A stretch of 62,412 bases of DNA, filler included, from Collodictyon triciliatum (Eukaryota), in NCBI GenBank assembly GCA_043381765.1. It is 24 parts of 24 records of this genome, joined end to end, with 100 filler letters (N's around TTAATTAATTAA, not from the genome) between each part and the next. Parts side by side here need not be neighbours in the genome. Positions count along the whole stretch, not along the records: positions 34,254 to 36,784 come from JBHJMP010008714.1; 23 more parts are not named here. One strand, written 5' to 3'. Below the pieces are notes generated by a model, which saw nothing but the letters and a program-made list of their open reading frames with translations, ran no database searches and had not been told where the DNA came from. Below are positions 3,381 to 57,164 of this stretch, one piece after another (the stretch's first letter is position 1; the number at the start of each line of letters is the position of its first letter). The position numbers and the translations under genes were made by a program.

Positions 3381-3539
3381 GAAGTTCGAGGTACAGAATA
3401 ATATCGAACCCAATCCGCGTATTGAATATAATGATAGTTAAAAGAACAAGGAATGCTAGTTCCAAAGTTTGTGTGGTTGATTAAGATAAAAATTAGATTT
3501 AGGTGCATATTAACTTTTTTTTTTTTAGGGTTGATGAAA

Positions 3540-11366: not shown

Positions 11367-13409
11367 AGAGAGAAAAGAGACAAAAGAAAACAAGAAAACA
11401 AAATAAAATTCACCCTACATTCACTCCTCAGCAGTCAGACCCTGAAAGCACGCTCTTCAGTGAATTAATTCGGGGTCAGATGGGATTGCCCTCCACTTCT
11501 CCCCCTTTGGGATTTTTTATGGGAAAGCCTTTCATTTTGTCTAAACTAGAAGAGGCCACAGAAAAGTATTTTTGCTCTTTTGGCGCTTATCATGCTTTCT
11601 TCTCTTGTTCTGTATACCAGTAGTTCTCTCTTCTCATGCAATATAGGATTTATTTTTCGATCAATACTGAAGAATATTCGATTGGAATTCAGGAAAGAAT
11701 CCAAAGCAGCTGTAAAAGATACCAAGGAGGATGCAAATGCTTCTCTAGATAAGGTTTCGAAAAGAGGCCTTTTTATGCAGGAGCTTATCCTATCAACAAT
11801 GATTGAGGGATTGAGTATTGAGTAGCATTCATTCTTTTGTCACAACTTAAAGATACCCGACAAAGCAAATTCTCGTTAAATTAGGGCACTTTTGGTAGCA
11901 AAAAAAAAAGTTTGCCTGAAAAGTTGATGAAAGATACGGAATAAAGCTCGCGTTGAAAACTATAAACACACACATGAAAAGAAGCTTTCTGTCTAATACC
12001 TGCTGAAATTGTTTAAAGTTTCCCTTTTTTTTTTCTTGCTTTTCTTTTATCATGTCAAATATGATGACACATAGTGTGGGTAGGTGGCTCGTGAAGAAAA
12101 TATCGAATTAGCCCCATCAAGTAGAAAAAAAACGGTTAATGACGATATAACAGGCATACATTATTACATTCTCTTTTGCTGATTCCCGAAGTCGTGCAGA
12201 AGCTATGGTAACGAAAAATCATCAGAACTTTGATTTTAAACAGTATATCCTTCCATCACAGTTGCGCAGACGAGTCAAATAATAATTATAATGATAAGCT
12301 AGTGGGTGATGAAGCCAACATATCTTTGGAGATGAGTGATTGTTGGTTGGTAAAGGCAAGCTTCTGGAGAGGAAACCTACTACATCTCACCCATCTTATG
12401 GCTATTTGTCTGGCGTTTGGTGTGGGGAATATTATTTTTAGTCTCGATTTAGATGTCATGGCATAGATCTGCCGACTTTTAAAGTGTGTATAGCGCAACA
12501 AAATTATCAGAAATTGGAGGCCGTTGATTTTATAGGGACAAAGCTGTAGCGAGTAATAATCTCCCAGAGATAGGATGAAAAACGCAGCACCATTCAAGCT
12601 TTGAAGCGTCACATACAAAAGAACGAAAAGATAAGTAGACCAATAAATTCTGATATGAACGCCATGTCAAGACTCATAAGAGAATGATAATCTTTTTGGC
12701 CGTGCTAGGCAAGCTCGTTTACATAGCATGGACTGAATCCCTTCAGCAGTAGCCTTAAAATGCCATGAAAAAGGCAATTTGCTGTCCCATTTCTCTAAAA
12801 TTTTCGATTCCTTTGTTCCTTTTTTTCTCCTGCTCATCGTACCTCGCTAATATAGAAAAAATATATTTTTATGAGTTCTGTTTTTTTCTTTTCCCTAGTT
12901 ACGAATGTGATTTAAGAATAAAAATTTGTTGCGTTATCCTTTAATTAATAATAATAAATAGTTAAGCTGAACGATGAAACAAAAAAGAAAAAAGAAAAAA
13001 AAAGAAAAAAAAGAAAAAGAACAAGAAAAAGAACAAGAAAAAGAACAAGAAAAAGAACAAGAAAAAGAACAAGAAAAAGAACAAGAANNNNNNNNNNNNN
13101 NNNNNNNNNNNNNNNNNNNNNNNNNNNNNNNTTAATTAATTAANNNNNNNNNNNNNNNNNNNNNNNNNNNNNNNNNNNNNNNNNNNNGAATCAGTTTAAA
13201 CCTCTTAAAGAGGAGTTCCATTCTCTGTCGGCAGAAGGGACCCATCATTTTAACTGCTTGCTTAATGTTTTTTTCATTCCAGGTGATCGGTCTCTTTCTA
13301 CTCAGAAAAGGAGTCTTCAGCACCGCCCAGAAAATCTTTTGCCATGGCCCGTCTGGGCATGCAAAGAGGTCATTAGCCCATTTATTCCATGCACTATCCG
13401 AATATGTTA

Positions 13410-15723
13410 AAAGTGCGATTGAGAACGAACTATTCAAAGACGAAGACTGCTTTGTCCGCCTTCGAGGCAAGCAATGGCCGGTTCTCTCTTTCGCAAACCA
13501 TAGTAATATGTGCAATCGACTACGGGATGTAATGGAAGTCCGAAAGTGCTACGAGAAGGACGTGACTCTAATGGTGGAAAACCCTGCTCTCGGGCTCAGA
13601 GTAGCCTTCCCAAGAAAAGAAAACGCAGCTGCCTTCATTAAGGAGGGGTCGTTTAAGCTCCTCAATCACCAATACACTCCCATGCCAGCCAAAAACTGTC
13701 ACAAAGGTTGCGCACCTGTCTAACATACCGCTGGGTGTCAGCTGGACTGACACTTTCGAAGCCTGCAGCGAACACCTCACCCAATCAAAGTCAACTGGAC
13801 AAAGCCTGGAGGAATATGCATGAATGATGCACTCGTTACGTATGACAAAGAACAGGAAAAAATGGGGAAAATACCTCCCTTTGTCGTCATTCATGGCACA
13901 CGCCGTCGCGTGGAGATACGCGCCCTCAAAGAGTCTGACATCCCATCAACTCTCCCCAACAAGGGAGGGAATGACACACAAGGTCAAACCACAAACCACA
14001 AAAAAATAACAGCTACTGCCAATCCGATGCCCACCAATCAAGCGGCCCAACAAACAAAACGCCACCACTTGCTTCTCGGGATTCAATGCAACAATACCCA
14101 ACTATAGCGCTGAAGACTGGCCAACCGTGCAAGAATCGTCTAAGCAAAACAAGCCCAGAGCCCATAAACAAGGCCAAAAGCAAGGCGTTCCGTCCTCTAA
14201 TGCCAGAGGGAGAAATCGCGACAAGACACCCATGGATGAAGTGCTCGAAGTCTCAATCAATACAAAGGTCCAGGAGCGGCCCCAAAATCAGGAAACGGAT
14301 ATCGAAATGATGGACGAAACACCAGGCGATTTGTGCGAAAGTACTTCTTCAAGTTCGCCGATGAACACGGAGGAAGCAATATCAATCGTGGAATGGCTTC
14401 GAGGAAGTGGAGGAAAAACATCGCCAGTCTTCAAGATTTCCAACCACTCCAAGTCGATGATATCAAACAAAAGTCACCTTCAAATCATGGAGAGGATGCC
14501 GAGGAAAGGGAAATCCAAGCCAACTCAGTAACAGAATCGGGAATAGCATTATATCACCCAGTAAACCACACCCACCAGCCACCTTAGAGGTCATGACTCC
14601 TGGGACCACTCAAGAGACTCCTTCAGCAAACACTGCGCAATCCATAACAAACGACATCCCAGACTCTGGATTGAAAGAAGAACAGTCCACCCAACATGTC
14701 GTCATCATAGAAGGTTCAACTGAAGAAGACAGCGAGCACCTTGATGCTTTGGGTACGTCAAATGACTCTTCAAGTACTATTCAATGGAACATTCTGATTG
14801 CGGAAGTAGTCTTGAATACCAAGAAAGAAAAATCTTTCTCAAAGAAAAAAGAATCGTGTCTGAAGCTAAGAAGCCTGCTACTCAAAGCCATTATCGGTGC
14901 ACCACAAAAGAATAACACTGCACAAGAAAAGCCAACATCCCCACCATCCTGCACAAAATTGAAAGGAAGAATAAAAAAAAACACTGCACAAGAAGCCTCG
15001 CCCGATGAAAAGAGAGCGAATCAGTCAAGCACACCACTAAAGAAAAAACCCCAGAAAACAAAAAAAATGGAGGTAAAAGTGTTCCTGTCTATCACTTGGA
15101 TAAAGGGGAAATGCAACCGAGTGTTACTGATGACCAACAAAGTACATCACCAACACACCAGCTATGAAGGGGAGCGATGCCAAAAGCCATTACAAAGGGA
15201 TAAAAGCTCGTGGGATTCTGATAAATGACATTCTAGACAAAAGAAAATACCTTGGCATCATCTTCGGTCCACAATCGGATAAGAAATGGACGAGCCTGGT
15301 TGAGGACATCAAGTCGAAAATATCAGTGTGGAGCAACTTTCATCTCTCCGATGTGGGGAAAGTAAGGTTGTGGAACCAAGTGATACTGTCGACCCTTATC
15401 TACAACATGAAAGGCACTTTGCTGAATCTCCAGCGACTGAAGGAGCTGGAAGACATCTGCCGCAACTTCATCACTACGAATAATCAAAAATATAAAATCA
15501 AGACGCTCTCTAAGCCACCTACAGAGGGAGGACTGGGACTCATAACGCCTGGCATTGCATGGACATCGCTCACGATGAGATGGTGGACAGATATGCTTAC
15601 CCATCCGAAAGGATTTTGGCAGCGTGGAATGTGGCATCTCATCCATCGCATATGCCCGAACTTCAAGGCACAGCTCTGTGAGAGCAGAATCCCATCACCA
15701 CCACCAAACACGCCCGAGCCGCT
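13410..15723 (+). mobile_element. Degenerate, internally deleted L1/Tx1-like LINE (ORF1 joined to post-RT part of ORF2)
   Basis: 13668-15188 is colinear with the copy at 54624-56070, then jumps to KYLGIIFG...LSKPPTEGGLGL. Frameshifts and stops in ORF1. Confidence 0.88.
14929..14980 (+). mobile_element. 52-bp LINE 3' end with A-tail nested in ORF1, flanked by a 14-bp target-site duplication
   Basis: ACACTGCACAAGAA at 14915-14928 and 14981-14994. The insert matches the reverse complement of about 31650-31703 and is absent from the sister copy at about 55830-55870. Confidence 0.85.
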
Positions 15724-16008
15724 NNNNNNNNNNNNNNNNNNNNNNNNNNNNNNNNNNNNNNNNNNNNTTAATTAATTAANNNNNNNNNNNNNNNNNNNNN
15801 NNNNNNNNNNNNNNNNNNNNNNNTTTTTCAGAACACAAGGAATACGGGGAAGAAAGAGAAACAGCAAACAAACAAACAAACAAACAAACAAACAAACAAA
15901 CAAACAAACAAACAAACAAACAAACAAACAAACAAACAAACAAACAAACAAACAAACAACCACACAACCACACAACCACACGCACAGCCAAGAGCGAAGG
16001 AAAGAAGG

Positions 16009-17717
16009 ATGAACGCGCCGCAGACACCCGAGGCCGCAATGCAGGCGTGGTTCCGGGAGACGGAGGGGCCGGAGGCAGGGGCCGGGGGCGGAGCGCAGCA
16101 GGGGCGGGATCGGCCGGCGACCGGGACGCAGCTGCTGGTGTCTGGCGTGTCGACGCTGGGCAAGAGCTTTGCGGCGGGGTACGGGCTGCGCGTGCTGCTG
16201 AAGCTGATCCCGCTGGCGCTGCGGCACGCGCGGGGGGCGGCGGGGCGGCGCGTGTCGCTGACGCTGGCGCAGCGGGCCGGGGCGATCCTGGGCGGGGCGG
16301 CGCAGGTGCGCTTCGGGCTCTTCTGCGGGGCGTACATTGCGCTCTACAAGACGCTGCTGCAGGCGACGCGGCACTGGGCGGCCCGCCCGACGCACTACCT
16401 GCCGGTGGACGCACAAAAGGACGCCCTGGACGCGCAGAGGGACGCCCTGGACGCACAAAAGGACGCGGCCTACGCCCCGTTCCTGCGGCGCACGCCGTCG
16501 CTGCTGAGCCTGCCGACGCGGGCGCTGGAGCCGTACGAGCCGGGGCTGAGCCGGGTCGGGCACAAGCGCGACAACATCGTCTACTCGGAGTGGGCGACGG
16601 TGCGGGGCCTGCTGTTCGGCGGCGCGGCGGGCGTGGCGCTGGTGGCGGCGCCTGCGCAGTCGCGCGTGTCCATTGCGCTGTTCTTTGCCGTGCGCGCCTT
16701 GGAGGTTGCCGCCCGCTACGCCGCCCGCGTGGGGATTGTCCCGGGCGTCTCCAACGCGGACGTCTTTGTGATGATGGCGGCGTCGGCGCAGGTGCACTTG
16801 CGGTTGCGGTTGCAGGGCCCGACCGCCCGCCTCCTTTCCTTTCGGCGTCATCGCCGCCACATCTTGCAAAGCATGGCGCATCCATCTCTCCGACTGGCCG
16901 CACTAACCCCTCCCTCGCGCAGGTGCTGTGGGCGTGGATCTTCCAGCGGTCGGCGCTGGACCCCGGGTATGCGCGCTTCCTGGACATGCACGGCGGGCAG
17001 GCGGACGCGGTGATCCGGGCGGTGGAGTCGGCCACGCGCGGGACGGCGCTGCGCAGCGACCTGCATCGGCAGCTGGAGGCGCTGGTGGGCGCGCACGGGC
17101 GCGTGGTGGACCTTGCCCATCCGCACGTGACGTGCCATGCGCTGCACCCGGCCCACGACTCGTGCGTGCGCGGCCACGCGGCGTTCTGGGCGCAGGCGCT
17201 GCGGCGGGCCGTCCCCGTCTACCTGCCCGTCTATCTCGCGCCCCTCCTGGTCTTCCACTACCGCGCCCTGGCCAGAGACCCCGCCGCCTCCCTGGCCCGC
17301 GCGCTCCTGGGCGTCGGCCGCTCCGCGCTCTTCCTCTCCTGCTACTGCACCTTCGCCTGGGCCAGCCTCTGCCTCTCCCGCAGGGTCCTGCGCGTCCGGT
17401 CCAGCCTCATCGGCGTCCTCGCTGGGCTCGCGGCCGCCTGCGCCCTCTGGATCGAAAAGAAGAGCCGCCGCATCGAGCTGGCCATGTACGTCACCATGCA
17501 CGCCCTCGAGACCTTCCATCGCTGCTGCGTCCAGTGGCGGGTCTACACCCCGCTGCCCCACGGCGAAGTCCTCCTCTTCTCCCTCTCCTCCGCCGTCATC
17601 CTGCAGGCCTATCTGCGCCACCCGGAGCTCCTCAGCCCCACATACCGCTCCGTCCTCAACCGCGTCGTCGGCCAGATCGGCACAGACACCCCCATCCACG
17701 ATGCTCGCCACGAGTGA
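16009..17717 (+). CDS. TMEM135: TMEM135-family membrane protein, 2 exons (16009-16791, 16923-17717)
   Basis: FGLFCGAY, VGRSALFLSCYC, IEKKSRRIELAMYV and HGEVLLFSLS motifs. Intron GTGCAC...CACTAAC...GCAG joins the two ORF-track frames. Confidence 0.85.
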
Positions 17718-17921
17718 CCCCCTTTACCTCAGCTGCCAGGCTCCGTGAAGGCCTGCACATGGTGCTCCCATCGCATGTCATCTTATCTTATGTCCCCTCT
17801 CTTTTCTTATCTCTTTTCTTTTCTTTTCTTCTCTTTTCTTCTCATTTCTTGCCATAACGTATTGCGTCGTGTCGTGAGTAAAGTCAACTGACTCGGGTGG
17901 CGAGGTGAAATTACGTTGTTC

Positions 17922-17981
<60 letters not shown>

Positions 17982-18230
17982 TATGTGTGTGCACGTTCTC
18001 TGTTATTCGCACGTCCCTATAGTGCGGTGGGCCTCTGTCCTTTTGTACAGCTTCGACTGGTACCTTTTACTATCGACAAAGAAGATGGAGAAAGCAAATG
18101 GCGAAAAGTTGGACAACAATGAAGCGATGTTGGAGATTAATGCGAGCATAAAACAGAGGAGAAAGGAGGAGGAAAATAAAAAGAAACGTCTGTGTGAGGA
18201 TGCGAACTCTAGTAATTTTTCCATCTTCAA

Positions 18231-18321
<91 letters not shown>

Positions 18322-18459
18322 CATTATTATTATTATCATTATTATTATTGCCATTACTANNNNNNNNNNNNNNNNNNNNNNNNNNNNNNNNNNNNNNNNN
18401 NNNTTAATTAATTAANNNNNNNNNNNNNNNNNNNNNNNNNNNNNNNNNNNNNNNNNNNN

Positions 18460-31822: not shown

Positions 31823-34405
31823 GAAAGACCAGGACAAAATTTTCAACTATTTAAATATCTTGATTATTTCTCAGGATGAACTCAAAAAAAACATTTTTAA
31901 TAGCACTTCATGAACTTTCAGAAAGGGCCCATCTGTCATTCCATTTCATCGTACAAGGAACTCTGGAGCTCTCATTTTTTTGTTGATAAACAACTCATAC
32001 AGTAAGTTGACCAAGCCAAATCATAGCATCGAAATTTATTTATTTCAAGGCTTCAAGTTCCATTAATCTAATTTTCTATTATAATAAAGAAACCCATAAT
32101 TAAAACTACGAGGGGATTACAAAGAATAGTGTAATTTTGGGCCAGATTGACCAAAATTCTGATAGTAAAAAAGTATGATTCTTGTCTAATCTTACCTTCT
32201 AATTCCCATCATAATTGAAAAGCACGAAAAATTCTAAGTTTGTATCACAGAAAATTTGTATCACAGAGAATTCGTCACATTTGATATTCAACGATAGAAA
32301 AACCAAATACGCACATTTTAAGTACATGTATGTATAAAGCCTAATTTTTAGAAGATCATCAATCAAACTTCATTCTTAATTTAGGTCATGTTTTGATAAA
32401 TAGTTCAATCTGACATATTCATGGACTAGCTGGAAAATCGCATTATTTTATTCAATATACCATATTAAGAATTAATTATTCATCTTCAATCGGAGATTGT
32501 TCAAACTAAAGTCATGGACAAAACTCAGATACAGTTGCAAAATGAGAGGGACAAAAGACAAAATCCGTGGGAAAGGGAACTGTTTCGATCTACTACTTGG
32601 AGGAGGGGGGAGGGGTGGTGGATCGGCGGCTCCTAGTTTTCCCGATGGTCTGAAGTAAAGGTCTAAGAACGTACGGTGGGGGTGTTGGGTTGTGTTGTGT
32701 GTGGAAGTAAGTATGTCTTTGTCCAGTCATTCACGACCAAAAAATAAATAAAATAATAATATTCGTTGTAAATTTTTGTAATCAAAAGTCATGTATCCTT
32801 TTTTGCGGTAAGGAGGCTTAATCTTATTCGAAAACATTGCCTATTTAACATATAAAATACAGCATGCATTAAGTCGAATAGTTTATAATTAAAAATATTT
32901 CAGTTGTAAAACTATTACTAATAATGATAGTACAAAATCTATAAAATTAAGAATTATCATCGGAGTCTGGCCATGCTAGTTATTTCATTATTCAGTTGAT
33001 AGATTTAATATAGTATGAAAACATGGAATCAATATTTTAATGTTTATAATATAATTGCCTCAGCTATATATTTTCTAATGAAGTTAAATCAAGATGAATG
33101 GTCTGCCTACAGAATCGTCATGCTACGTCGTTTATTTTTTAATAATCGTTTTATGTATCGCCTTGTGAATACTAAATCTACAAAAAATCTTTAAATTACT
33201 TATCTACTAGAGAAGCTTAGTTATCTGCAGATTCTTTGTATCCGTATTTTAAATTCCGTTTTAATTAAATCAATAGATACACTTTTGCATCAAATGTGAA
33301 TTTTTTTTTAAAAAAACCAACTAACCAAAATATAAACCATTCTAATATCCAAATCGAAAAACACATACCATATATCCGCTAAAAACCAGTTTGCCGCTAA
33401 TTGATACACCACCCCTCCCCCTTGACCGTCCTGCAATCATTTGTCCACAACTTCACGCCCATACCCCTCACCTTACTAGACCTTGTTCGTTTCTCCAAGT
33501 GAAATGATTTGTAGGTTAATCGCTCAAAAAATAAACCTATTTGATAATGAATCGTTGTTAAATCATCTAAATTAGTTTAATTTTCTCTCTTGGTTATTTA
33601 GATGTCGATTTATCAAATCCAACAAACCCACCCCTCCCCCTTCCAATTCCAAATCAATCAGAGGTAATGAAAAGGTATTTGTTATATGTATTATTACGTT
33701 CCCCCCGACTAACCAAGGATATGGTAGACGGTTCACGCCCTTTTATTTTTTTTCGATTATTATCATTCACGTATATTCATAAAATCCTTTTTTATGCATA
33801 AATTATATTTTCGTATATTTGTGTTGGTTTCTTAATGATTTATCTATTTAATCCACCACATATAGTATGAATTCTATGATTGTTTCATATTATGAAGTCT
33901 GATAGTGTTCAGTTTATTATGTTTGGTCAAAATATGGCAGAGTAAAAGTATTAAATACGATTACAATTTAATTTCTTTATCTATTATTCATCAATTTTCA
34001 ACTACAAACATTATCTCTGTATTGATGCACACGTAAAATACATCAATGACTAAATTCTCAATTATAAATTACCTTTGAAACGATTGTGCTTGTAAATTTA
34101 TTAACATTCAGACCTTTGTTGCCTTTCTCATAGTAATAATTATATTTTGTATCNNNNNNNNNNNNNNNNNNNNNNNNNNNNNNNNNNNNNNNNNNNNTTA
34201 ATTAATTAANNNNNNNNNNNNNNNNNNNNNNNNNNNNNNNNNNNNNNNNNNNNTTCATTTTTAAGGTTTTATTCTGTTTTCATGGAGTGTCCTTGTGGGA
34301 AAAAAGCGGAGGTCTGCTTGAAAAAAACCCAGAGAATCTCTCCATCTAAAATGATTATAGTTAACAAACATATATTAATATGCATTTATTACACTACTTA
34401 CCTTG

Positions 34406-36784
34406 TTAAGCTGTGGCTTTCTGTCTCCACTCAGCTGCTTTCTCGGTGTCCATCTCAACACCCCATCCATTCTCATAGCATTCAGCAACAATAGAGGAAA
34501 ATATTGGATGAGATTTTTCATTCAATGAAGACAAAACACGAACAACAAAAGAATCACCGCCTCTGGCTTTGTCAAGTAGGTGCTTCTTTGATTTCTCTGA
34601 ATTGCAGCATAAGCCATGAAGAATAATTAATTCCTCTTCCGTCAATGATTGAGAAATAAAATCATCAAAGTTCTTCTGAATTATTGGAAGACAATCCATA
34701 TCTCCGAGTTCACATGCTTTAATGTAATATCGAAATGCTTGAAGGCAGTCTTTTTCCACTCCTTCTCCCTGTAAATATCGGTTTCCGAGCCCTCCTACAG
34801 CATTAGGGTGGTTTTGTTCTGCGGCCTTTTTATACCAGTTTATGCACGCTTGATAATCTTTGATTGTATTGATGCCATTTCTTGCGCAGAATCCCATGAC
34901 GAATTGAGCGTTTGCGTATCCCATTTCACCATATTTCTTGATTTTTTCATATGCATGTATGTTGCTTTCCTTTGCAGCACTACCATACATTTCAATAGCT
35001 TTCTCGGTGTCCTTCTCAACACCCCATCCATTCTCATAGCATTCAGCAAGAATAGAAACAGCTCGTGAATATTTGTGTTTTTCACCAATTTTTCTTCCAT
35101 ATGTCTCGTACTCCAGAATATCTTCCTTCATTTCAGCAAATTCTTTCAAAACATTGAATGCCTCCTTTGAGCCTTGTTGTGCAAGTTGCTTCAATCCATC
35201 AAAGTTTTTATATGCTTTTAGAGCGATAATTCTCCATTCAATTACTTTCTCGGTGTCTTTATCAACACCCCATCCGTTTTCATAGCACTCAGCCATCATT
35301 TGAGCCTGGAACTTGGTGAACTTACCCTGCACACAATAGGCAGCAAAGTCCGCATCAAAGGAAGCAGCACCGATAGAAAGTAGAAGGAATTTGTTGAATT
35401 TACTCAATCCCATGACGTTTCTGATTTGGATGCTTCCACCTTGCAGCTTTCTTGGGCCGATAATCTGGACTGTCTTTGCATCTTGGATTCTGTTGGCGTC
35501 AATCGTGTTCATCGCATCACTTGTTCTGTTGAATACTGCGATGACTTCATCTGGCTTTTCTTTCTTGACGAGGTATTTTCCTTGGGTGTAGGTCACTTCT
35601 GACTTTTGCACACTGTGTGTTTGGTTTCCTGTGGCTACATCCCAAATACGTATTGTATTATCACTACTTCCTGAAGCCAGCCAATTTTCACCATTCGGCC
35701 CTTGAATACTGCAAACGCTGTTGATATAATTTGTATGGCCTTTTAATGTTTTGATTTGGTTTCCTGTGGATACATCCCAAATACGTATTATATAATCACA
35801 ACTTCCAGAAGCCAACCAACTTTCACCATTTGGTCCTTGGATAGAGCAAACACTCATGACAATATGTGTATGACCTTTTAATGTTTTGATTTGGTTTCCT
35901 GTGGCTACATCCCAAATACGTATTGTATTATCATTACTTCCAGAAGCCAACCACTTTTCACCATTCGGTCCTTGAATACTGCAAACACTTTGGACCCAAT
36001 CTGTATGTCCACGTAATGTTCTGATTTGATTTCCTGTAACTTTATCCCAAATACGTATTGTTTTATCATAACTTCCTGATGCCAGCCAATTTTCACCATT
36101 CGGTCCTTGAATGCTGCAGACACTAGTGACAGCCCATGTATGACCTTCTAGTTTTTTGATTTGGCTTCCTGTGGCTACATCCCAAATACGTATTGTTGTA
36201 TCCCAACTTCCAGAGGCCAACCAATTTTCACCATTCGGTCCTTGAATACTACAAACAATGTTGATAGAATCTGTATGTCCTTCTAATGTTTTCATTTGAT
36301 TTCCTGTGGCTACATCCCAAATACGTATTGTATTATCTCGACTTCCAGAAGCCAGCCAGTGTTCACCATTCGGTCCTTGAATATTGCAAACACTCCAGAC
36401 AAAGCCTGTATGACCTTCTAATATTTTGATTTGGTTTCCTGTGGTTGCATCCCAAATACGTATTGTCTTATCATCACTTCCAGAAGCCAGCCAATTTTCA
36501 CCATTCGGTCCTTGAATACTACAAACACTTCTAACTTCATGTGTATGCCCTTCTAATTTATCATTCAGAATTCCGAATTTTACATTATTCATATTCGCAT
36601 TATCAAAAACACAATCACCAAGCATCGAATTCGTGAAATCAACATCATCCAAGTTGGCACCAGTGAAGTTTGCACCATCAAGGATTGAGTTACTGAGATT
36701 TGCATGTGGAATTTTGATGTTTGATAAATCCATTCCACCGAACGAAACATTCATGAAATTCAAAAGTGTGATTGCATCAGATGC
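34406..36784 (-). CDS. Pentapeptide-repeat + 7 WD40 + Sel1-repeat protein; probable C-terminal half of a NACHT-WD (NWD/NLR-like) protein, 5' end off contig
   Basis: ASDAITLLN..F.GMDLSNIKIPHANLS..LDGANFTGANL pentapeptides, seven 45-aa WD repeats, and Sel1 motifs AECYENGWGVEKD and WYKKAAEQNHPNA. Confidence 0.9.
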   Translation of the reverse strand, partial: ASDAITLLNFMNVSFGGMDLSNIKIPHANLSNSILDGANFTGANLDDVDFTNSMLGDCVFDNANMNNVKFGILNDKLEGHTHEVRSVCSIQGPNGENWLASGSDDKTIRIWDATTGNQIKILEGHTGFVWSVCNIQGPNGEHWLASGSRDNTIRIWDVATGNQMKTLEGHTDSINIVCSIQGPNGENWLASGSWDTTIRIWDVATGSQIKKLEGHTWAVTSVCSIQGPNGENWLASGSYDKTIRIWDKVTGNQIRTLRGHTDWVQSVCSIQGPNGEKWLASGSNDNTIRIWDVATGNQIKTLKGHTHIVMSVCSIQGPNGESWLASGSCDYIIRIWDVSTGNQIKTLKGHTNYINSVCSIQGPNGENWLASGSSDNTIRIWDVATGNQTHSVQKSEVTYTQGKYLVKKEKPDEVIAVFNRTSDAMNTIDANRIQDAKTVQIIGPRKLQGGSIQIRNVMGLSKFNKFLLLSIGAASFDADFAAYCVQGKFTKFQAQMMAECYENGWGVDKDTEKVIEWRIIALKAYKNFDGLKQLAQQGSKEAFNVLKEFAEMKEDILEYETYGRKIGEKHKYSRAVSILAECYENGWGVEKDTEKAIEMYGSAAKESNIHAYEKIKKYGEMGYANAQFVMGFCARNGINTIKDYQACINWYKKAAEQNHPNAVGGLGNRYLQGEGVEKDCLQAFRYYIKACELGDMDCLPIIQKNFDDFISQSLTEEELIILHGLCCNSEKSKKHLLDKARGGDSFVVRVLSSLNEKSHPIFSSIVAECYENGWGVEMDTEKAAEWRQKATA

Positions 36785-36888
36785 NNNNNNNNNNNNNNNN
36801 NNNNNNNNNNNNNNNNNNNNNNNNNNNNTTAATTAATTAANNNNNNNNNNNNNNNNNNNNNNNNNNNNNNNNNNNNNNNNNNNNCTTA

Positions 36889-39414: not shown

Positions 39415-40162
39415 NNNNNNNNNNNNNNNNNNNNNNNNNNNNNNNNNNNNNNNNNNNNTTAATTAATTAANNNNNNNNNNNNNNNNNNNNNNNNNNNNNN
39501 NNNNNNNNNNNNNNAAAGAGAGAGAAAATAAAAGAGAGAGAAAATAAAAGAGAGAGAAAATAAAAGAGAGAGAAAATAAAAGAGAGAGAAAATAAAAGAG
39601 AGAGAAAATAAAAGAGAGAGAAAATAAAAGAGAGAGAAAATAAAAGAGAAAATAAAAGAGAGAGAAAATAAAAGAGAGAGAAAATAAAAGAGAGAGAAAA
39701 TAAAAGAGAGAGAAAAAATAAAAGAGAGAGAGAAAATAAAAGAGAGAGAGAGAAAATAAAAGAGAGAGAGAGAAAATAAAAGAGAGAGAGAGAAAATAAA
39801 AGAGAGAGAGAAAATAAAAGAGAGAGAGAAAATAAAAGAGAGAGAGAAAATAAAGAGGAAGGAAAGGATGCGATGGTAATCCAAAGGGATCCATGAGAAT
39901 TTGCACCAAACTGTTCCTATTCGGTCTTTGGCCATTCAAACCCATTTCCGGTCTGCGGCGGTCGCACCGCCCACGCGACACGCAGAAACCACACAACTGT
40001 GAAATGCAACAATTACTTCGACAATTCATGCCACGCTTCCAACAAAATGCAACTGCACACATCTCCATTGTGCGAAGAAATAAACAATAATACTAATAAA
40101 TAATAGTAATAATAATAATAGGTCAAGAAAGGCCGACTAGCACACATCATTTATCACTCAGT

Positions 40163-41730: not shown

Positions 41731-42539
41731 TAGAAAACAACCATGCAAATTGAAGCGATACTTTCCATAAATGTCTTTTGGCATAAAAGCAGGTAAAAGA
41801 TGTTTGATTTTGGTGCTGTGGGATTTCATATCTGGAAAATCATATTCATTTTCCTTCCTTTTTTTTTTTGAACAATAACAACAATAACAACAACAATAAC
41901 AACAACAATAACAACAACAATAACAACAACAATAACAACAACAATAACAACAACAACAACAACAACAACAATAACAACAACAATAACAACAACAATAACA
42001 ACAACAATAACAACAACAATAACAACAACAATAACAACAACAATAACANNNNNNNNNNNNNNNNNNNNNNNNNNNNNNNNNNNNNNNNNNNNTTAATTAA
42101 TTAANNNNNNNNNNNNNNNNNNNNNNNNNNNNNNNNNNNNNNNNNNNNTTTTTATTGTTTTTATTGTTTTTATTGTTTTTATTGTTTTTATTGTTTTTAT
42201 TGTTTTTATTGTTTTTATTGTTTTCATTGTTTTTGTTTTTGTTTTTTGTTTTTTGTCTTTGTTTTTGTTTTTGTCTTTGTTTCTTTATTTTCTTTTTCAT
42301 TTATTTCTTTATTTTCTTTGTTTATCTTTTTTTATTTTCATACCTTCTATTTCTCATTTAACGTGACCGTGAAGAGTAACAGCAGACGTGAGTAAAAAGG
42401 AGGAAAACAATATTTTTAAAGTATTCATTATGTGCTACATAAATACAAACAAATAATTTCTTTCACAAGGAATGAAATAAATAAAGCACCATTGCGAATA
42501 CACTCAGCAAATCGCAACACATTATACTTTGAATGCAGG

Positions 42540-49827: not shown

Positions 49828-50118
49828 CTATAAAGATTGCGTAGTGGTGAAGGCTGCCAGGAAAGACTCAGCAGCATGTTTTTTTGTTTTTTTTAGAGGA
49901 AGGTGTATGTTTTCTTTTTGAAGGATTAAAAATACTTTATCGAGTATATTTTTAGCGTTGTTAAAGTCCCTCGTCAAGGATACAGTTTGTTTGCTTTCTG
50001 AGCGATTGAATTCTTTAGATGAGACATCTATGTACAGTTTTTTGAATTTACTTTCAGTGACATGTATTCCAGTTCTTTTTCGCAGTTGCAACACATCTTG
50101 GAGTTCTTAACTCTACAC
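49828..50118 (-). pseudogene. Fanzor/TnpB-like RNA-guided nuclease C-terminal remnant (RuvC-II, Zn finger, RuvC-III)
   Basis: Across frameshifts: E-L-R-T/S-K-M-C-C-N-C, V-H-R-C-L-I, RSESKQTVSLT-R-D-F-N-N-A-K-N-I-L. Confidence 0.72.
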
Positions 50119-50119
50119 C

Positions 50120-51896
50120 AGCTGTTTCGCTCTTCGATCCCTTGGGCAGAATAACAACTCACTCGAACGCACAAGAATCGAGTACACAACTCGACCAAGG
50201 CCCCTCGGCCACACCCTTCCGCCAATCAAAGAGAGCCCAGGAGCAGAACCTGTACGGAGCCGGCTGCTACGTCCACCTTCGAGGTAAGCACAAACTGCCC
50301 CAGAACCACGAAGCCCGCAACCAAGCGAAGAAAGAACTCGCCCAAGTCCTTAAACAACTCAAGTGCTACGAGGAGAACGTGATCATGCAACTGTACAGTC
50401 AACCCCAAGAATACACAGTAGCCTTCCCGCACCAAGAAAAAGCCGCAGAGTTTGTCAAGGCAAGACATTTTAAACTACTTAACTGCTCTTTCCGCCCATA
50501 CCAAGAGAGGCCACCTCTCCACTCCGCTATCATCGGAGATATTCCCCCCAGGCTTCACCAAGGCAGACATTGAAGAGGCCTGCAAAGTATTATTTTCGCC
50601 TACCATAGTTTACTACGAATCTGTGGACGATATCTGGACCAATGACGCGCTAGTCAAGTTCCCGGTATCAGAACTGTCCAAAGTGCCAGAAAAGAAAATA
50701 AACTTGCAAGGATTCCTCGTCCCCTTCATACTCCTCCCCGAACGGAAGGAGAAGCCCAAACACGATACCAAACATGACAAGCACCAGGGTAAATACCACG
50801 GTAAACCCAACCGCAAACCCTCGCAACCCACGCAGTCCAGGGGCGAAAGACGGCCCAACCCTCCGGGCACCATCACCCGAAGCCATGGAAGACGAGGACG
50901 ATGAACCGCCTCAGCCCATTACCGCCACCCAACCAAGAAGCTCCTCGCAAGGAACTCCCACAGAAAGTAAATGAAACTTTGGGAATGCGCATCATCCTGA
51001 AATCAACCGCACAAACAGAACAAGGCTCGGCTTCTTCTTCTGGAAGAACCCCTGAGAGGAAGACGACTACACCAAATACACCAACAGCAAACCTGAGCTC
51101 CAAACCCCAATCTAAACCACCGAGAGTAGAAAGGCCTTCATCAGAGCCTCAATCCAAGTCGACTAGATAACCAAACATAACCAACTTCATGCTCCATAGG
51201 AGCCCTGGCGTGACTCCAGCAAAGCGCGTGCAGAAATCGAATAGCCCTAAAGAAGCAAACTCCAGCAACGACTCGCTCTATCTCTCACCTGCGTCCCAAG
51301 AGACAGGGACTGAACCAGGAACACCCCAGAGCAGCGTCAGCTTCACACCGAAATTCCCAAGATTCGAGGGCGCCCCTAACAAAACAAACTACCAGCATGC
51401 TACAACTCTCATGCGTACTGCTCGCACAAACCCTAGCCCAAAAAGAGCGAGCACAGAGCTGACAGCCTCGCCGGAAAACACACAACTTCCCACCGCAGAG
51501 GCCGTAGCGTCACCCGCACAACACACAAGGAAACTATCAGCGCCAAAATTGCGAAAGATGCATGCTGAGATACCAAGAATAACTTCCGAAACAAATACAA
51601 CAACCATAGCCACAGAAACACCCACAACCGCCACGACCGAGTCAACACAGATATCCGCAAACACAACTGAACGCAACGAGAGCGATGCTGCTCTCACGGA
51701 GGGTCCTCCCTTCACCCATTAATAACAGACCATGCGTTTCGGCGTTCTGTCATGGAACGCTAGGGGGATTAACGACCCCCACAGGCGGAAAGAGGTTTAC
51801 AAGACAGCTCTTTTCACCCACGCGGATATCATCTGTCTTCAAGAGACGTGGCAGAGCCCTGAGACCCAATCTACTGACTTCGGGTGGAAGGGCCCT
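50120..51896 (+). mobile_element. L1/Tx1-like LINE, second family: frameshifted ORF1 (to 51722) and start of the ORF2 APE endonuclease (51732)
   Basis: ORF1 is homologous to 13440-13930 (C.V.LRGK, KCYE, VAFP, FKLLN, IP.G, NDALV). ORF2 begins MRFGVLSWNARGIN..DIICLQET. Confidence 0.9.
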
Positions 51897-54623: not shown

Positions 54624-57164
54624 ACCAATACACTCCCATGCCAGCCAAAACTGTCACAAAGGTTGCGCACCTGTCTAACATACCGCTGGGTGTCAGCTGG
54701 ACTGACATTTTCGAAGCCTGCAGCGAATACTTCACCCCAATCAATGTCAACTGGACAAAGCCTGGAGGAATATGCATGAATGATGCACTCGTTACATATG
54801 ACAAAGAACAGGAAAAATTGGAGAAAATGCCTACCTTTGTCGTCATTCATGGCAGACGCTGTCGCGTGGAGATACGCGCCCTCAAAGAGCCTGACATCCC
54901 ATCAACTATCCCCAACAAATAAGGGAATGACAAAAAAGGTCAAACCACAAAAAATCACCACCAATCAAGCGGCCACCAACAAACAAAACACCGCCACTCG
55001 CTTCTCAGGCTTCCACACAAAAGTAGCCGACTTTTGCGCTAAAGACTGGCCAACCGTGCAGGAATCGTCTGTGTAAAACAAGTCCAGAGCCCACAAACAA
55101 GGCCAAAGGCAACACGCGTCGTCCTCTAATGCCAGAGGGAGAAATCGCGACAAGACATCGCGGATGAAGTGCTCGAAGCCTCAATCAAGACAAAGGTTCA
55201 GGACGGCCCCAAAATCAAGAAATGGATAGCGAAATAATGGACGAAACACCAGGCGATTTTCCCGAAAGCGCTTCATCAAGTTCACCATTGAACACAGAGG
55301 AAGCAGTATCAATAGTGGAATGGCTTCAAAGTGGAGGAGAATTCGATAGCCTCAAAGATTCCAACCTCCTCAAGCCGATAATATCTCACCAAGCTCACCT
55401 TCAAATCATGGAGAGGATGCCGAGGAAAGGGAAGCCTAAGCCAACTCGGTAACAGAATCGGGAAACAGCATAATGGCACCCAGAAAACCACACCCGCCTA
55501 CCTCCTTAGAGGGCATGACTCCTGGAACCACCCAAGAGACTCTTTCTTCAGCAAGAACTGCGGAATCCATAAGAAGCGACGTCCCACACTCGGGATTGGA
55601 AGAACAACAGTCCATCCAACCTGTCGTCATCATAGAAGGTTCTGCTGAAGAAGAAAGTGAGCACCTTGAAGTCTCGGGGTCGACAAATTACTCCTCAAGT
55701 ACCGTTTATGGGAGCATACCTACTGTCGAAACTCTTGCGACTTTCCAGCGGGAAACACTTTCCAACGCAAAAAAAAAAAGAACCATAGACGAATATAAAA
55801 CACTGGTTACTCATCCTGCAATCACTGGCTCACCAAAAAAAAAAAAAATCGAAACAGGCGAAGATAAAGCATCGCCTGAGGAAAAGAGAATGAATCAGTC
55901 AAGTACAACATCGAATATAGCGAGCCAGAGAGCAAGCCAGAATGAAAGCGGAAACATGGGTTGCCCTGCCTACCGCGTGGATGAGGGGGAAAAATTGGAA
56001 CCGAGGACACTGATGACCAACAGAGTGCATCTCCCAACGCACCAGCTACAAAGAGGGTGCAGCCAAAAGCCCAAGACCATCCGACAAATCCTGACCGAGC
56101 CGCGAGCAATCATAACACCGGCCAAATGAAGGACAACTCGAGTAAACCATCCCACTCCGAGCAACCCAGCTCCAGCGGAGAGGGCCAACCACCGGAGGCT
56201 ACGGCCTCCAAAAGCCAATAGACTTTATATGCGTTTTAACGTTCTGTCGTGGAACGTTACGGGGATTAACGACCCCCAAAAAAGAAAAGAGGCCCTAAAC
56301 ACTGCTCTTTTCTCTCATGCAGATATCATCTGCCTCCAAGAAACATGGCTCAGCCCTGATAATCTAACCAATGATGAAATATGGAAACGTCCATAAATGT
56401 GCTCCTGTGGCGATAATCAACAGAGACATACAGGTGTAGAAATTTTATGCAAGAAATGGATAGCCAAACTCAATCCTCGCTTCAGAGAGATAATTCCTGG
56501 CCGTTGGATAAGTCTCGATATCAGAATCGATGGAGCTGACACTCGCATAATGACGACATACATGTCGCTCCAAACAGCAGGTTCAAATACAAGAATACAC
56601 GAGTATGAGCTTATCTCTAAGGAGATGGAGTCTGCGAAACGTATCATCATATGTGGAGACTTCAACGCTCTTCTTGATGCCAGCACCTAGTGGCCTGGGT
56701 CTTCGACATGCAATGACAAACCTTTCGTCGACTGGACAACCAGGCACAAGCTGCAAGACTTCTGGAAGACGCTCAATCCTCACTCTCTAGGAGCAACGTG
56801 CAGAAGACACACAAAAAGCGGCTTCACGGAGCAGAATCGATCGCCTCTTCTGCTCAAGGGACTTGCATGCGTGGTTCAAGAAACTCAAAACAGTCTATTA
56901 TGCGCTTTCCGACCACAGTGCTATCCTGGCTAACATCGATTCAGCCGGTGGCTGTGAATGGCAGGCGAGGTATACAGACTGGAGGGCATACAATGACTCC
57001 AAGTCGATAGAAGACATACAAAACAAGCTCAGGGCTTACTTCAACACCCCGGGTGATGCGCCCATCGAGGCGGAATGGCCTGTACTCAAAAAGCAGCTTT
57101 CTATTCTTCTTATCCAAAAGTCGAGCTGGTTTAAAAATAAGGATGGAGAGGAGCGGAAGAAGCT
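54624..57164 (+). mobile_element. L1/Tx1-like LINE: degenerate ORF1 plus APE endonuclease (ATG 56229)
   Basis: SWNVTGIN, DIICLQET, GDFNA, RIDR and SDH motifs, with in-frame stops and frameshifts. Colinear with 13668-15188. Confidence 0.93.

What the first reader, a model, noticed from the sequence alone, without database searches (positions are those of the whole stretch)
35620..36560. HET-E-like WD40 array: near-identical scaffold with hypervariable top-face positions
Seen: seven 135-bp repeats, nearly invariant (CSIQGPNGENWLASGS.D.TIRIWD..TGNQ) even at DNA level, but differing after GHT (HE-V-R, GF-V-W, DS-I-N, WA-V-T, DW-V-Q, HI-V-M, NY-I-N) and in SGSxDx (DDK, RDN, WDT, YDK, NDN, CDY, SDN). 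Known: fungal HNWD/NWD NLRs such as Podospora het-e diversify at equivalent positions by concerted evolution and repeat shuffling. Inference: a diversifying innate-immune or allorecognition receptor family in this protist.
Basis: partly seen in the sequence, partly recalled or inferred. Interest (0 to 1): 0.72.

Follow-up and report, generated by a model that had tools for sequence, protein, structure and literature searches.

The report
Hypervariable WD40 sensor array, protist gene
A gene fragment from an unidentified freshwater microbial eukaryote encodes a seven-bladed WD40 propeller whose blades share one scaffold but differ at the ligand-facing residues, as in fungal and bacterial NLR-type immune receptors; the receptor's NTPase half is not on the contig.

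Summary
Seven in-frame 135-bp (45-aa) WD40 units lie on the minus strand at 35606-36550. The scaffold is conserved. Variation is concentrated at unit positions 4, 5, 7 (d-a loop and start of strand a) and 26, 28 (b-c turn). These are the positions reported to be under diversifying selection in Podospora HET-E/D.

Diversity at the first and second bases of these codons is 0.61, against 0.22 at four-fold synonymous scaffold sites (p=0.002). A close relative, P0392, differs at 15 of 15 such positions but at only 10 of 84 scaffold positions.

Contigs from four public runs share the scaffold and diverge at these codons, which indicates a multi-copy family.

The window is a chain of unlinked ~2.5-kb contigs, and the gene is cut at its 5' end (36784), so no NACHT can be seen. 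What remains is a linker, pentapeptide repeats, the WD40 propeller and a Sel1 tail. The linker-pentapeptide-WD40 part is collinear with bacterial NACHT-pentapeptide-WD40 proteins, all of which carry a Walker A motif about 400-450 aa upstream.

It is best read as a new variant of a known kind: 45-aa units, a Sel1 tail and a eukaryotic host (spliced 56-nt intron). NLR membership is inferred, at odds of about 0.5.

The parts
34254..36784 (.). The whole contig that carries the finding (2531 bp). On both sides lie N44-TTAATTAATTAA-N44 linkers to unrelated contigs.
   Evidence: Map of N runs. Sequence.
34409..36784 (-). 5'-truncated open reading frame of 792 codons (P0001) with no internal stop. The order is linker/pentapeptide, WD40, unique linker, Sel1.
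   Evidence: Pfam gives WD40 at 2.7e-68 (7 stretches) and Sel1 at 1.7e-31.
36551..36784 (-). aa 1-78: a short pre-pentapeptide linker motif (ASDAITLLN...) followed by pentapeptide repeats. This is the connector seen between NACHT and WD40 in bacterial relatives.
   Evidence: BLASTP to P0007 residues 547 onward, E 3e-79. hhalign of close relative P0392 against alignment A1, probability 99.9. PF00805 is in the precomputed lists of P0392 and P0266.
36416..36550 (-). WD40 unit 1. Variable codons 4-7 at 36530-36541 and 26-28 at 36467-36475.
36281..36415 (-). WD40 unit 2. Variable codons at 36395-36406 and 36332-36340.
   Evidence: Run contigs differ at 36398, 36402, 36403 and 36406.
36146..36280 (-). 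WD40 unit 3. Variable codons at 36260-36271 and 36197-36205.
   Evidence: Run contigs differ at 36198.
36011..36145 (-). WD40 unit 4. Variable codons at 36125-36136 and 36062-36070.
   Evidence: Run contigs differ at 36133, 36134 and 36136.
35876..36010 (-). WD40 unit 5, the unit closest to the consensus. Variable codons at 35990-36001 and 35927-35935.
   Evidence: Several contig joints break at 35988-35991.
35741..35875 (-). WD40 unit 6. Variable codons at 35855-35866 and 35792-35800.
   Evidence: Joints at 35867/35868.
35606..35740 (-). WD40 unit 7, which closes the propeller. Its last five residues depart from the consensus. Variable codons at 35720-35731 and 35657-35665.
35318..35605 (-). 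Unique linker of about 95 aa (aa 394 to about 489) between propeller and Sel1 array. It has no family match and the structure model is poor.
   Evidence: no family listed for it. (hits cover only the Sel1 part). (pLDDT below 50).
34409..35317 (-). Sel1-like alpha-helical repeat array (aa about 490-792). It contains three copies of a 59-nt segment (34437-34495, 34998-35056, 35244-35302); the first two are 97% identical.
   Evidence: Pfam Sel1. The repeat finder family D2. All-helical model.
34406..34408 (-). TAA stop codon.
34346..34401 (-). 56-nt GTAAGT...TTTTAG intron, starting 4 nt after the stop codon (3' UTR). It is removed in contigs of runs X1, X2 and X9.
   Evidence: Joint 34345->34402 in 3, 2 and 1 contigs, and in none in X3. 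Sequence.

Best explanation
This is the C-terminal, ligand-binding half of one member of a multi-copy, fast-diversifying protein family of a freshwater microbial eukaryote.

Shown:
- Seven 45-residue WD40 units fold into one seven-bladed propeller.
- The units descend from one unit and are kept similar at the DNA level.
- The residues on the top (ligand-binding) face differ from blade to blade and from paralogue to paralogue. These are positions 4, 5 and 7 in the d-a loop and start of strand a, and positions 26 and 28 around the invariant Asp of the b-c turn. Each gene copy therefore presents a different binding surface.

Inferred:
- Unit duplication, exchange between units and copies, and selection for new top-face residues generate a repertoire of binding specificities, as in Podospora HNWD genes.
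- The propeller is attached through a pentapeptide beta-helix connector to an upstream STAND (NACHT-type) NTPase. Ligand binding would then release oligomerisation and an N-terminal effector, which is the NLR mechanism.
- The C-terminal Sel1 solenoid is an extra docking or second sensing surface.
For: Repeat array and variable columns.

Seven-bladed propeller: the AlphaFold2 model has pLDDT above 90 over residues 80-390. Strands fall at unit positions 6-13, 19-25, 30-34 and 40-44, which puts positions 4, 5, 7, 26 and 28 in the d-a loop, the start of strand a and the b-c turn. Foldseek's best matches are a prokaryotic WD40 domain (5yzv, TM 0.89), designed 7-blade propellers, the 'highly repetitive propeller' 2ymu, and WDR5.

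Same sites as HET-D/E: Paoletti 2007 reports codons 7/9 and 25/27, flanking conserved codons 8 and 26, in the d-a loop and b-c turn on top of the propeller (passages read).

Faster than neutral:
- Scaffold pS is 0.245 and pN 0.048. At the five variable codons pN is 0.61.
- Diversity at the first and second bases of variable codons is 0.61 (n=10 sites), against 0.22 at four-fold sites of invariant scaffold codons (n=12). Mann-Whitney p=0.002.

Identity by descent rather than codon bias: the same codon is used within a column in 84% of pairs, against 46% between columns that encode the same residue.

Independent comparison with P0392 (88% identical over aa 1-125): 15 of 15 variable positions differ against 10 of 84 scaffold positions, Fisher p=1.5e-11. 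The pentapeptide part is 72/78 identical.

Family in nature:
- 361, 333, 86 and 112 contigs of runs X1, X2, X3 and X9 lie on the contig at 90% identity or more.
- 115, 121, 21 and 40 of them fit two places.
- All 8 listed base differences inside the array fall in variable-codon stretches.
- Joints break at those codons and, once the letters between the two sides are counted, fall in 135-nt register.

Link to STAND proteins:
- The linker, pentapeptide and WD40 parts are collinear with NACHT-pentapeptide-WD40 proteins.
- All 15 hits whose listed Pfam set includes PF00805 have a Walker A motif about 400-450 aa upstream of the pentapeptide region.
- P0383, which shares the connector motif at 46% identity, has a Pfam NACHT match above the curated cut-off.
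Against: No NTPase domain is seen. The contig ends at the connector.

The 215 aa upstream of the connector in P0392 give no Pfam match. In hhalign they align to the bacterial NACHT proteins only from residue 196.

P0295 carries the same connector 42 aa from its annotated start and again internally, and has no Walker A. The connector-propeller module can therefore exist without a P-loop in the same predicted protein.

None of the 120 listed hits covers more than 54% of the query. No Pfam list shown holds WD40. The full architecture therefore has no listed precedent to argue from.

The selection tests rest on seven non-independent units and five codons. Unit identity (mean 75%) is below the 85% criterion for 'high internal conservation'.

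Short-read assemblies of such arrays can be wrong (abstract passage of PMC12222747).

No function was tested.
Confidence: 0.55

Rival explanations
1. The family has no NTPase. It is a free-standing pentapeptide-WD40-Sel1 adaptor or scaffold family (for example substrate receptors or docking proteins) that diversifies its binding face without NLR-type switching.
For: P0392's 215 upstream residues lack any recognisable NACHT or winged-helix signature. P0266 is annotated as starting 11 aa before the connector. P0295 has connector-propeller modules and no Walker A. A C-terminal Sel1 solenoid is typical of adaptor proteins, and the Sel1 hits carry many unrelated partner domains (kinase, caspase, TIR, GTPase).
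Against: P0392 and P0266 come from contigs of 1851 and 512 nt, so their starts are not reliable. Relatives carry Walker A 400-450 aa upstream, beyond what P0392 covers. Sixteen of 17 relatives outside the family with a pentapeptide-to-propeller architecture have a Walker A upstream.
Confidence: 0.25
2. The array arose by recent tandem amplification followed by neutral drift at unconstrained loop positions, with no diversifying selection and no repertoire function.
For: WD40 top-face loop residues are the least constrained by the fold. There are only seven units and five codons. The within-codon dN/dS at the variable codons is about 1.
Against: Variable-codon first and second bases are 2.7 times more diverse than four-fold synonymous scaffold sites. 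15 of 15 variable positions differ from P0392 while the neighbouring pentapeptide part is 92% identical. Eight of the 35 residues at the five variable positions are W, Y or F, as expected of binding hot spots.
Confidence: 0.1
3. The number and order of the units in this contig are an assembly artefact: a chimera of reads from several paralogues. The unit-level pattern would be real, but this particular gene would not.
For: The contig is one of many ~2.5-kb pieces. Hundreds of related short contigs exist in public runs, and many fit two places. Illumina assemblies fail on HNWD arrays (PMC12222747 abstract passage).
Against: Units differ at 13-24% of bases, enough for unique overlaps. The frame is open across all seven units and both flanks. 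Seven units give a closed propeller at high confidence.
Confidence: 0.15
4. The contig is bacterial, from a symbiont or contaminant, and the gene is an ordinary bacterial NACHT-pentapeptide-WD40 gene.
For: The best-aligned relatives of the N-terminal half are bacterial: Mycoavidus, Glomeribacter and cyanobacteria. The frame has no introns over 2.4 kb.
Against: A canonical GT-AG 56-nt intron directly after the stop codon is spliced out in contigs of X1, X2 and the metatranscriptome X9, but in no contig of X3, which is guessed to be DNA. No close relative was found in 185,579 prokaryotic species genomes. Identity to bacterial proteins is only 37%.
Confidence: 0.05

Closest known systems
Podospora anserina HNWD/NWD NLRs (HET-E, HET-D, HET-R)
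   Same: The WD40 units are much more alike than in ordinary WD40 proteins and are kept alike at the DNA level. Two pairs of hypervariable residues flank the conserved Val (d-a loop and strand a) and the conserved Asp (b-c turn) on the top face. It is a multi-copy family whose members differ at those residues.
   Different: The unit is 45 aa rather than 42, with three extra residues in the a-b loop region (alignment with 42-aa-type units). Unit identity is 69-82%, against about 85% or more. A pentapeptide connector precedes the array and a Sel1 array follows it. HET and NACHT domains are not seen. The host is not shown to be a fungus. Allorecognition is untested.
Bacterial NACHT-pentapeptide-WD40 STAND proteins (e.g. 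Mycoavidus cysteinexigens 'NB-ARC domain protein' P0007, Glomeribacter P0078/P0091, cyanobacterial homologues)
   Same: The pre-pentapeptide linker motif, the pentapeptide repeats and the internally conserved WD40 units are collinear (BLASTP 3e-79 at 37% identity; hhalign probability 99.9). Their own units also vary at the same positions (consensus of A1).
   Different: Those proteins have 6-13 matches to a GH..V.SV unit motif, of 42-aa type. They have an extra degenerate blade after the pentapeptide part and no Sel1 tail. Here the gene is eukaryotic (intron) and its NACHT is unseen.
NB-WD40 and NB-Sel1 NLR-like genes of non-fungal eukaryotes (Chondrus crispus NB-WD40; Klebsormidium NB plus Sel1-like repeats)
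   Same: They show that WD40 and Sel1-like repeats both serve as repeat arms of NB-type proteins outside animals, land plants and fungi (passages of PMC7145615).
   Different: In the passages read, hypervariable or internally conserved units are not described there, and WD40 and Sel1 are not combined in one protein.
Highly repetitive prokaryotic WD40 propellers with solved structures (5yzv Thermomonospora, 2ymu)
   Same: These are the best structural matches: TM 0.88-0.89 on the target, 40-41% identity for 5yzv.
   Different: The comparison concerns the fold only and says nothing about function or diversification.

Membership tests
WD40 beta-propeller (Pfam PF00400) | Repeated GH...WD units that fold into a closed propeller | tested here: met
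   PF00400 at 2.7e-68 with 7 stretches. Seven four-stranded blades at pLDDT above 90. Foldseek matches to WD40 propellers at E 8e-30.
Sel1-like repeat proteins (PF08238) | Sel1 helical hairpin repeats | tested here: met
   PF08238 at 1.7e-31, 107.9 bits against a cut-off of 30.7, 3 stretches. The model is helical but of low confidence.
Fungal HNWD/NWD NLRs (HET-E type) | NACHT NTPase upstream of the WD40 array | not testable with these tools
   The contig ends 78 aa before unit 1. No genome is held. Scans of metagenome, viral and prokaryotic collections found no relative.
Fungal HNWD/NWD NLRs (HET-E type) | N-terminal HET (or other effector) domain | not testable with these tools
   The 5' part of the gene is absent.
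Fungal HNWD/NWD NLRs (HET-E type) | High internal conservation of the units (about 85% aa identity or more; criterion of Dyrka 2014) | tested here: inconclusive
   Mean 75% (range 69-82%) over 45 aa. 85% when the six variable columns are removed. This is far above ordinary WD40 proteins but below the published threshold.
Fungal HNWD/NWD NLRs (HET-E type) | Hypervariable residue pairs flanking the conserved Val and Asp, on the top face | tested here: met
   Positions 5/7 flank V/I at position 6, and positions 26/28 flank D at position 27, with position 4 also variable. Strand positions are from the model. They correspond to codons 7/9 and 25/27 of Paoletti 2007.
Fungal HNWD/NWD NLRs (HET-E type) | Excess of non-synonymous change at those sites | tested here: met
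   pN is 0.61 at the variable codons against scaffold pS of 0.245. Diversity is 0.61 against 0.22, p=0.002. The sample is small and no codon-model test was run.
Fungal HNWD/NWD NLRs (HET-E type) | Unit exchange and repeat-number polymorphism between alleles and paralogues | tested here: inconclusive
   Joints in run contigs connect different units in 135-nt register, with new variable codons between them: 36132->36542, 36520->35868, 35989->35884. These are short contigs from mixed samples, not alleles of known individuals.
Fungal HNWD/NWD NLRs (HET-E type) | 42-aa unit directly following the NOD, with no pentapeptide connector | tested here: not met
   The unit is 45 aa (135 nt) and a pentapeptide connector precedes it. 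That 42 aa is the length of the HET-E unit is recalled knowledge, not from a call.
Bacterial-type NACHT-pentapeptide-WD40 STAND proteins | Collinear linker motif, pentapeptide repeats and WD40 units | tested here: met
Bacterial-type NACHT-pentapeptide-WD40 STAND proteins | Walker A / NACHT about 400-450 aa upstream of the pentapeptide part | not testable with these tools
   Present in 15 of 15 such relatives and in P0383. The window gene and its close relative P0392 (215 aa upstream) do not reach that far.

The most novel reading that the evidence does not exclude
A non-fungal microbial eukaryote carries a large repertoire of NLR-like receptors. It builds binding specificities by shuffling 45-aa WD40 units that bear hypervariable top-face codons. 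The receptor design would be derived from, or convergent with, bacterial NACHT-pentapeptide-WD40 proteins and extended by a second (Sel1) recognition arm. If the host is an organism whose cells fuse, this could be a HET-like allorecognition system outside fungi.
Probability: 0.3. Interest if true: 0.72.

Novelty: new variant of a known kind. Interest (0 to 1): 0.5.

Why it matters
Internally conserved repeat arrays with hypervariable ligand-facing residues are how fungal NLRs, and apparently many bacterial ones, generate recognition diversity without somatic recombination. The passages I read describe this for fungi.

My three literature searches listed no paper describing it in a protist. That is not proof that none exists.

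A protist family with the same site-specific diversification, expressed in freshwater communities, would extend this strategy to another branch of eukaryotes. The connector it shares with bacterial NACHT proteins also gives a concrete case for asking whether such receptors moved between bacteria and eukaryotes.

In practice, the conserved scaffold offers primers and probes for pulling out the whole repertoire.

Tried and rejected
**Looking upstream in the window.** This is impossible. The DNA beyond 36784 is a linker and then an unrelated contig. Its GAF-like reading frames are not part of this gene.

**Whole genome.** None is held.

**Family searches.** A Pfam scan of 66 other open frames of the window found no NACHT or WD40.

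**Protein searches.** The whole protein and the Sel1 half gave only generic WD40 hits (51% identity or less over about 40% of the query) and generic Sel1 hits (about 30%). There was no self-hit and no protein with both parts.

**Collection scans.** No relative was found with:
- the protein or the scaffold DNA pattern in JGI metagenome contigs
- the protein in viral contigs
- P0392 in prokaryotic genomes

**PADLOC and NCBIfam.** Only sub-threshold or uninformative matches.

**Structure of aa 392-792.** Mean pLDDT is 55, too poor to search with. The 95-aa linker domain stays uncharacterised.

**P0392 upstream region.**
- No Pfam match.
- hhalign of whole P0392 against the bacterial alignment starts only at residue 196.
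- A MAFFT alignment suggests faint collinear similarity to the winged-helix region of the bacterial proteins, but this is not statistically supported.
- A profile comparison of that upstream region alone was not run. Whether it is a diverged STAND helical arm therefore stays open.

**Lookups that could not be made.** Cluster-member names and the protein Atlas were unavailable. The organisms of P0266, P0295, P0383 and P0392 are therefore unknown.

**Alternative genetic code.** I considered reading TAA as a sense codon so that the frame continues across the intron. I rejected this because 792 codons contain no in-frame TAA, TAG or TGA.

**Run joints that skip the whole array** (35567->36619, side 24). 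These are too weakly supported to count.

**Run shares of 0.07-0.29.** I use these only after laying X1, X2, X3 and X9. The other runs are not evidence of habitat.
Full report
**What the window is.** The 62-kb window is not one locus. It is a chain of about 24 contigs of roughly 2.5 kb each (one is shorter), in near-descending order of length. Each is separated from the next by N44-TTAATTAATTAA-N44.
- The finding lies on the contig 34254-36784.
- No whole genome is held.
- Other contigs carry eukaryotic features: an mRNA-capping enzyme domain, IPT/TIG repeats, a reverse transcriptase and a TMEM135-like frame.

**The observation.** Tandem Repeats Finder reports 35620-36557, period 135, 6.9 copies, 82% matches and no indels. 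The repeat finder gives an exact 135-nt spacing.
- The coding strand is the minus strand. One frame is open for 792 codons, from the contig end at 36784 to a TAA at 34406-34408.
- In protein phase there are seven 45-residue units at aa 79-393, from 36550 down to 35606.
- Twenty-seven of 45 columns are invariant across the seven units.
- The columns with the most different residues are 5 and 26 (7 each), 7 (6), 4 (5), and 19 and 28 (4 each). Most other variation is in the last five residues, largely because unit 7 ends the domain.
- The 18-mer encoding T-I-R-I-W-D occurs seven times (with up to 3 mismatches allowed), only here. Chance expectation is 0.05.
- 'Near-identical' is too strong. Units are 76-87% identical in DNA. 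They are 69-82% identical in protein, or 85% without the six variable columns.

**DNA-level conservation and excess change at the variable codons.**
- Synonymous codon choice is position-specific. For example, Ile is ATA in all seven units at position 30 and ATT in all seven at position 32.
- Over all invariant columns the same codon is used in 84% of within-column pairs, but only 46% of pairs between columns encoding the same residue. The likeness is therefore by descent or homogenisation, not by codon bias.
- Pooled Nei-Gojobori counts give pS 0.245 and pN 0.048 for the scaffold, which indicates purifying selection. They give pN 0.61 for the five variable codons.
- Nucleotide diversity at the first and second bases of the variable codons is 0.61 (10 sites). 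At four-fold sites of invariant scaffold codons it is 0.22 (12 sites). Mann-Whitney p=0.002.
- This is what diversifying selection on top of homogenisation predicts. It rests, however, on seven related units, and no codon model was fitted.

**Structure.** An AlphaFold2 model of aa 1-405, made from the single sequence, has pLDDT above 90 across the WD40 part. It shows seven blades of four strands, at unit positions 6-13, 19-25, 30-34 and 40-44.
- This puts positions 4 and 5 in the d-a loop, position 7 in the first turn of strand a, and positions 26 and 28 on either side of the invariant Asp in the b-c turn. Together these form the top face.
- Foldseek's best matches are a prokaryotic WD40 domain (5yzv, TM 0.89, 40% identity), designed seven-blade propellers, the 'highly repetitive propeller' 2ymu, and WDR5.
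- Paoletti et al. 2007 (PMC1805685; passages read) found four codons under strong positive selection in the HET-D/E family. Codons 7 and 9 flank conserved codon 8 in the d-a loop. Codons 25 and 27 flank conserved codon 26 in the b-c turn. All lie on top of the propeller.
- The window's pairs 5/7 (around V/I at 6) and 26/28 (around D at 27) are the same sites. Three extra residues in the a-b loop region account for the shift in numbering and for the 45-aa unit (alignment with 42-aa-type units).
- Eight of the 35 residues at the five variable positions are W, Y or F.

**Relatives and the family.**
- Database searches with the whole protein and with the Sel1 half gave only generic WD40 and Sel1 proteins.
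- A search among short proteins found two close relatives:

| Relative | Length | Source | Identity to aa 1-125 |
|---|---|---|---|
| P0392 | 392 aa | Logan contig of 1851 nt | 88% |
| P0266 | 132 aa | contig of 512 nt | 79% |

- Against P0392, the pentapeptide part is 72/78 identical and the WD40 part 74/99.
- All 15 positions of the variable class differ, against 10 of 84 scaffold positions (Fisher p=1.5e-11). The classes were defined on the window's own units, so this is an independent test.
- Twenty of 22 listed public runs hold parts of the contig, with word shares of at most 0.29. I laid four of the 22 listed:

| Run | Kind | Contigs lying at 90% or more | Of these, fitting two places |
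|---|---|---|---|
| X1 | coded organism, guessed RNA | 361 | 115 |
| X2 | coded organism, guessed RNA | 333 | 121 |
| X3 | freshwater metagenome | 86 | 21 |
| X9 | freshwater metatranscriptome | 112 | 40 |

- All eight base differences listed inside the array fall in variable-codon stretches (36133, 36134, 36136, 36198, 36398, 36402, 36403, 36406). Those stretches make up 16% of the array. Only the 40 best-supported rows are shown, and 146 further rows are not.
- Contig joints inside the array break at or next to variable codons (35725, 35867/8, 35988-35991, 36132, 36342, 36542).
- Where the letters between the two sides are given, the joints fall in 135-nt register: 409-4=405; 652+22+1=675; 105+29+1=135. 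This is my arithmetic.
- Together this shows a pool of units with one scaffold and many variable-codon combinations. The contigs are short and come from mixed samples, so they show a family, not allelic polymorphism.

**Eukaryotic origin and expression.**
- Four bases after the stop codon, the minus strand reads GTAAGT...TTTTAG over 56 nt (34401 down to 34346).
- Contigs that skip exactly this stretch occur in X1 (3), X2 (2) and the metatranscriptome X9 (1). None occur in X3, which has depth over that bin.
- The gene or a close paralogue is therefore transcribed and spliced. The host is a eukaryote with short introns.

**Is it an NLR?** This is the part that cannot be shown.
- The first 78 residues are a short linker motif plus pentapeptide repeats.
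- They align from residue 1 with residues 547 onward of a Mycoavidus 'NB-ARC domain protein' and run on collinearly into its WD40 units (37% identity, E 3e-79).
- The same connector motif is found in Mycoavidus and Glomeribacter proteins, one metagenomic protein (P0037), P0295 and P0383.
- hhalign of P0392 against six such proteins gives probability 99.9, starting 20 residues before the pentapeptide part.
- All 15 hits whose displayed Pfam list holds PF00805 carry a Walker A motif about 400-450 residues upstream of the pentapeptide part. Twelve of these 15 also list PF05729 (NACHT), though the displayed lists are truncated.
- P0383 has a NACHT match above Pfam's cut-off.
- On the other side, P0295 has two connector-propeller modules and no Walker A.
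- The 215 residues upstream of the connector in P0392 have no Pfam match and no significant similarity to the bacterial proteins. They would not reach a P-loop at the usual distance in any case.
- I therefore put the NLR reading at about one in two.
- The nearest architecture is the bacterial NACHT-pentapeptide-WD40 type, not the fungal HNWD type. None of the hits that both list PF00805 and carry an organism name is fungal.

**The tail.**
- After the propeller comes about 95 aa with no match, then a Sel1-like helical array (PF08238, 1.7e-31; helical but low-confidence model).
- Three copies of a 59-nt segment lie in it, and two are 97% identical.
- Run contigs join these copies in other combinations, skipping 668 or going back 769 or 782. 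The Sel1 part seems to vary in unit number among family members too.
- None of the 120 listed hits, nor any Pfam list shown, combines WD40 with Sel1.
- NB-WD40 genes (Chondrus) and NB plus Sel1-like repeats (Klebsormidium) are each known from other eukaryotes (passages of PMC7145615).

**Comparison with the literature.**
- High internal conservation with hypervariable sites is established for fungal NLRs:

| Paper | What I read |
|---|---|
| PMC1805685 | passages |
| PMC4986451 | passages |
| PMC12222747 | passages |

- Dyrka 2014 sets the criterion at over 85% identity. This array falls short of it over the whole unit.
- PMC12222747 warns that Illumina assemblies mis-reconstruct such arrays. 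The unit order here therefore needs a long read.
- PMC7159879 (passages) lists pentapeptide, beta-propeller and TPR-type repeats as superstructure-forming modules in prokaryotic conflict systems.
- My searches listed no paper on such arrays in a protist.

**Verdict.**
- The analogy to HET-E holds at the level of mechanism: conserved scaffold, diversifying top-face codons, multi-copy family.
- Membership in the NLR/STAND class is inferred, not shown. An immune or allorecognition role is speculation.
- I rate it a new variant of a known kind and of moderate interest.

Noticed in passing
whole window; linkers e.g. 36785-36884: The window is a concatenation of about 24 contigs of roughly 2.5 kb (one is shorter), in near-descending order of length. 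They are joined by N44-TTAATTAATTAA-N44 spacers, so neighbouring 'genes' across spacers are not linked.
   Followed up: yes
34346-34401 (minus strand): A 56-nt GT-AG intron begins 4 nt after the TAA stop codon, so it lies in the 3' UTR. It is spliced out in contigs of X1, X2 and X9 but in none of X3, which is guessed to be DNA.
   Followed up: partly
34437-34495, 34998-35056, 35244-35302: Three copies of a 59-nt segment sit inside the Sel1 array (97% and 78% identical to the first copy), encoding the AECYENGWGV motif. Run contigs join them in other combinations, suggesting variation in Sel1 unit number in the family.
   Followed up: partly
15824-18359: One contig has 67% G+C, against 30-45% in the others. 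Its long frame has a weak TMEM135 cysteine-rich match (2.8e-10). It is a compositional outlier and possibly comes from another organism.
   Followed up: no
13190-15724, 50061-51719, 55440-56126; also 2642-3604: Several contigs carry related long frames (visibly similar peptide stretches) with no Pfam match. One contig carries a reverse-transcriptase domain (3.3e-16). This is probably a retroelement family dispersed in the assembly.
   Followed up: no
59892-62411 (+): An 840-aa open frame running off the window end has a long SQ/YQ dipeptide-type low-complexity start and at least four IPT/TIG domains (6.7e-55).
   Followed up: no
39515-39857: A 16-nt tandem repeat (AAAGAGAGAGAAAATA, 20 copies) sits directly at a contig end. 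At 41871-42000 there is an AAC-rich microsatellite.
   Followed up: no
P0383 (2645 aa, unnamed source): This relative of the connector motif combines a NACHT match with two connector-pentapeptide-propeller modules in tandem. P0295 also has two modules. The duplicated sensor modules are unusual.
   Followed up: partly
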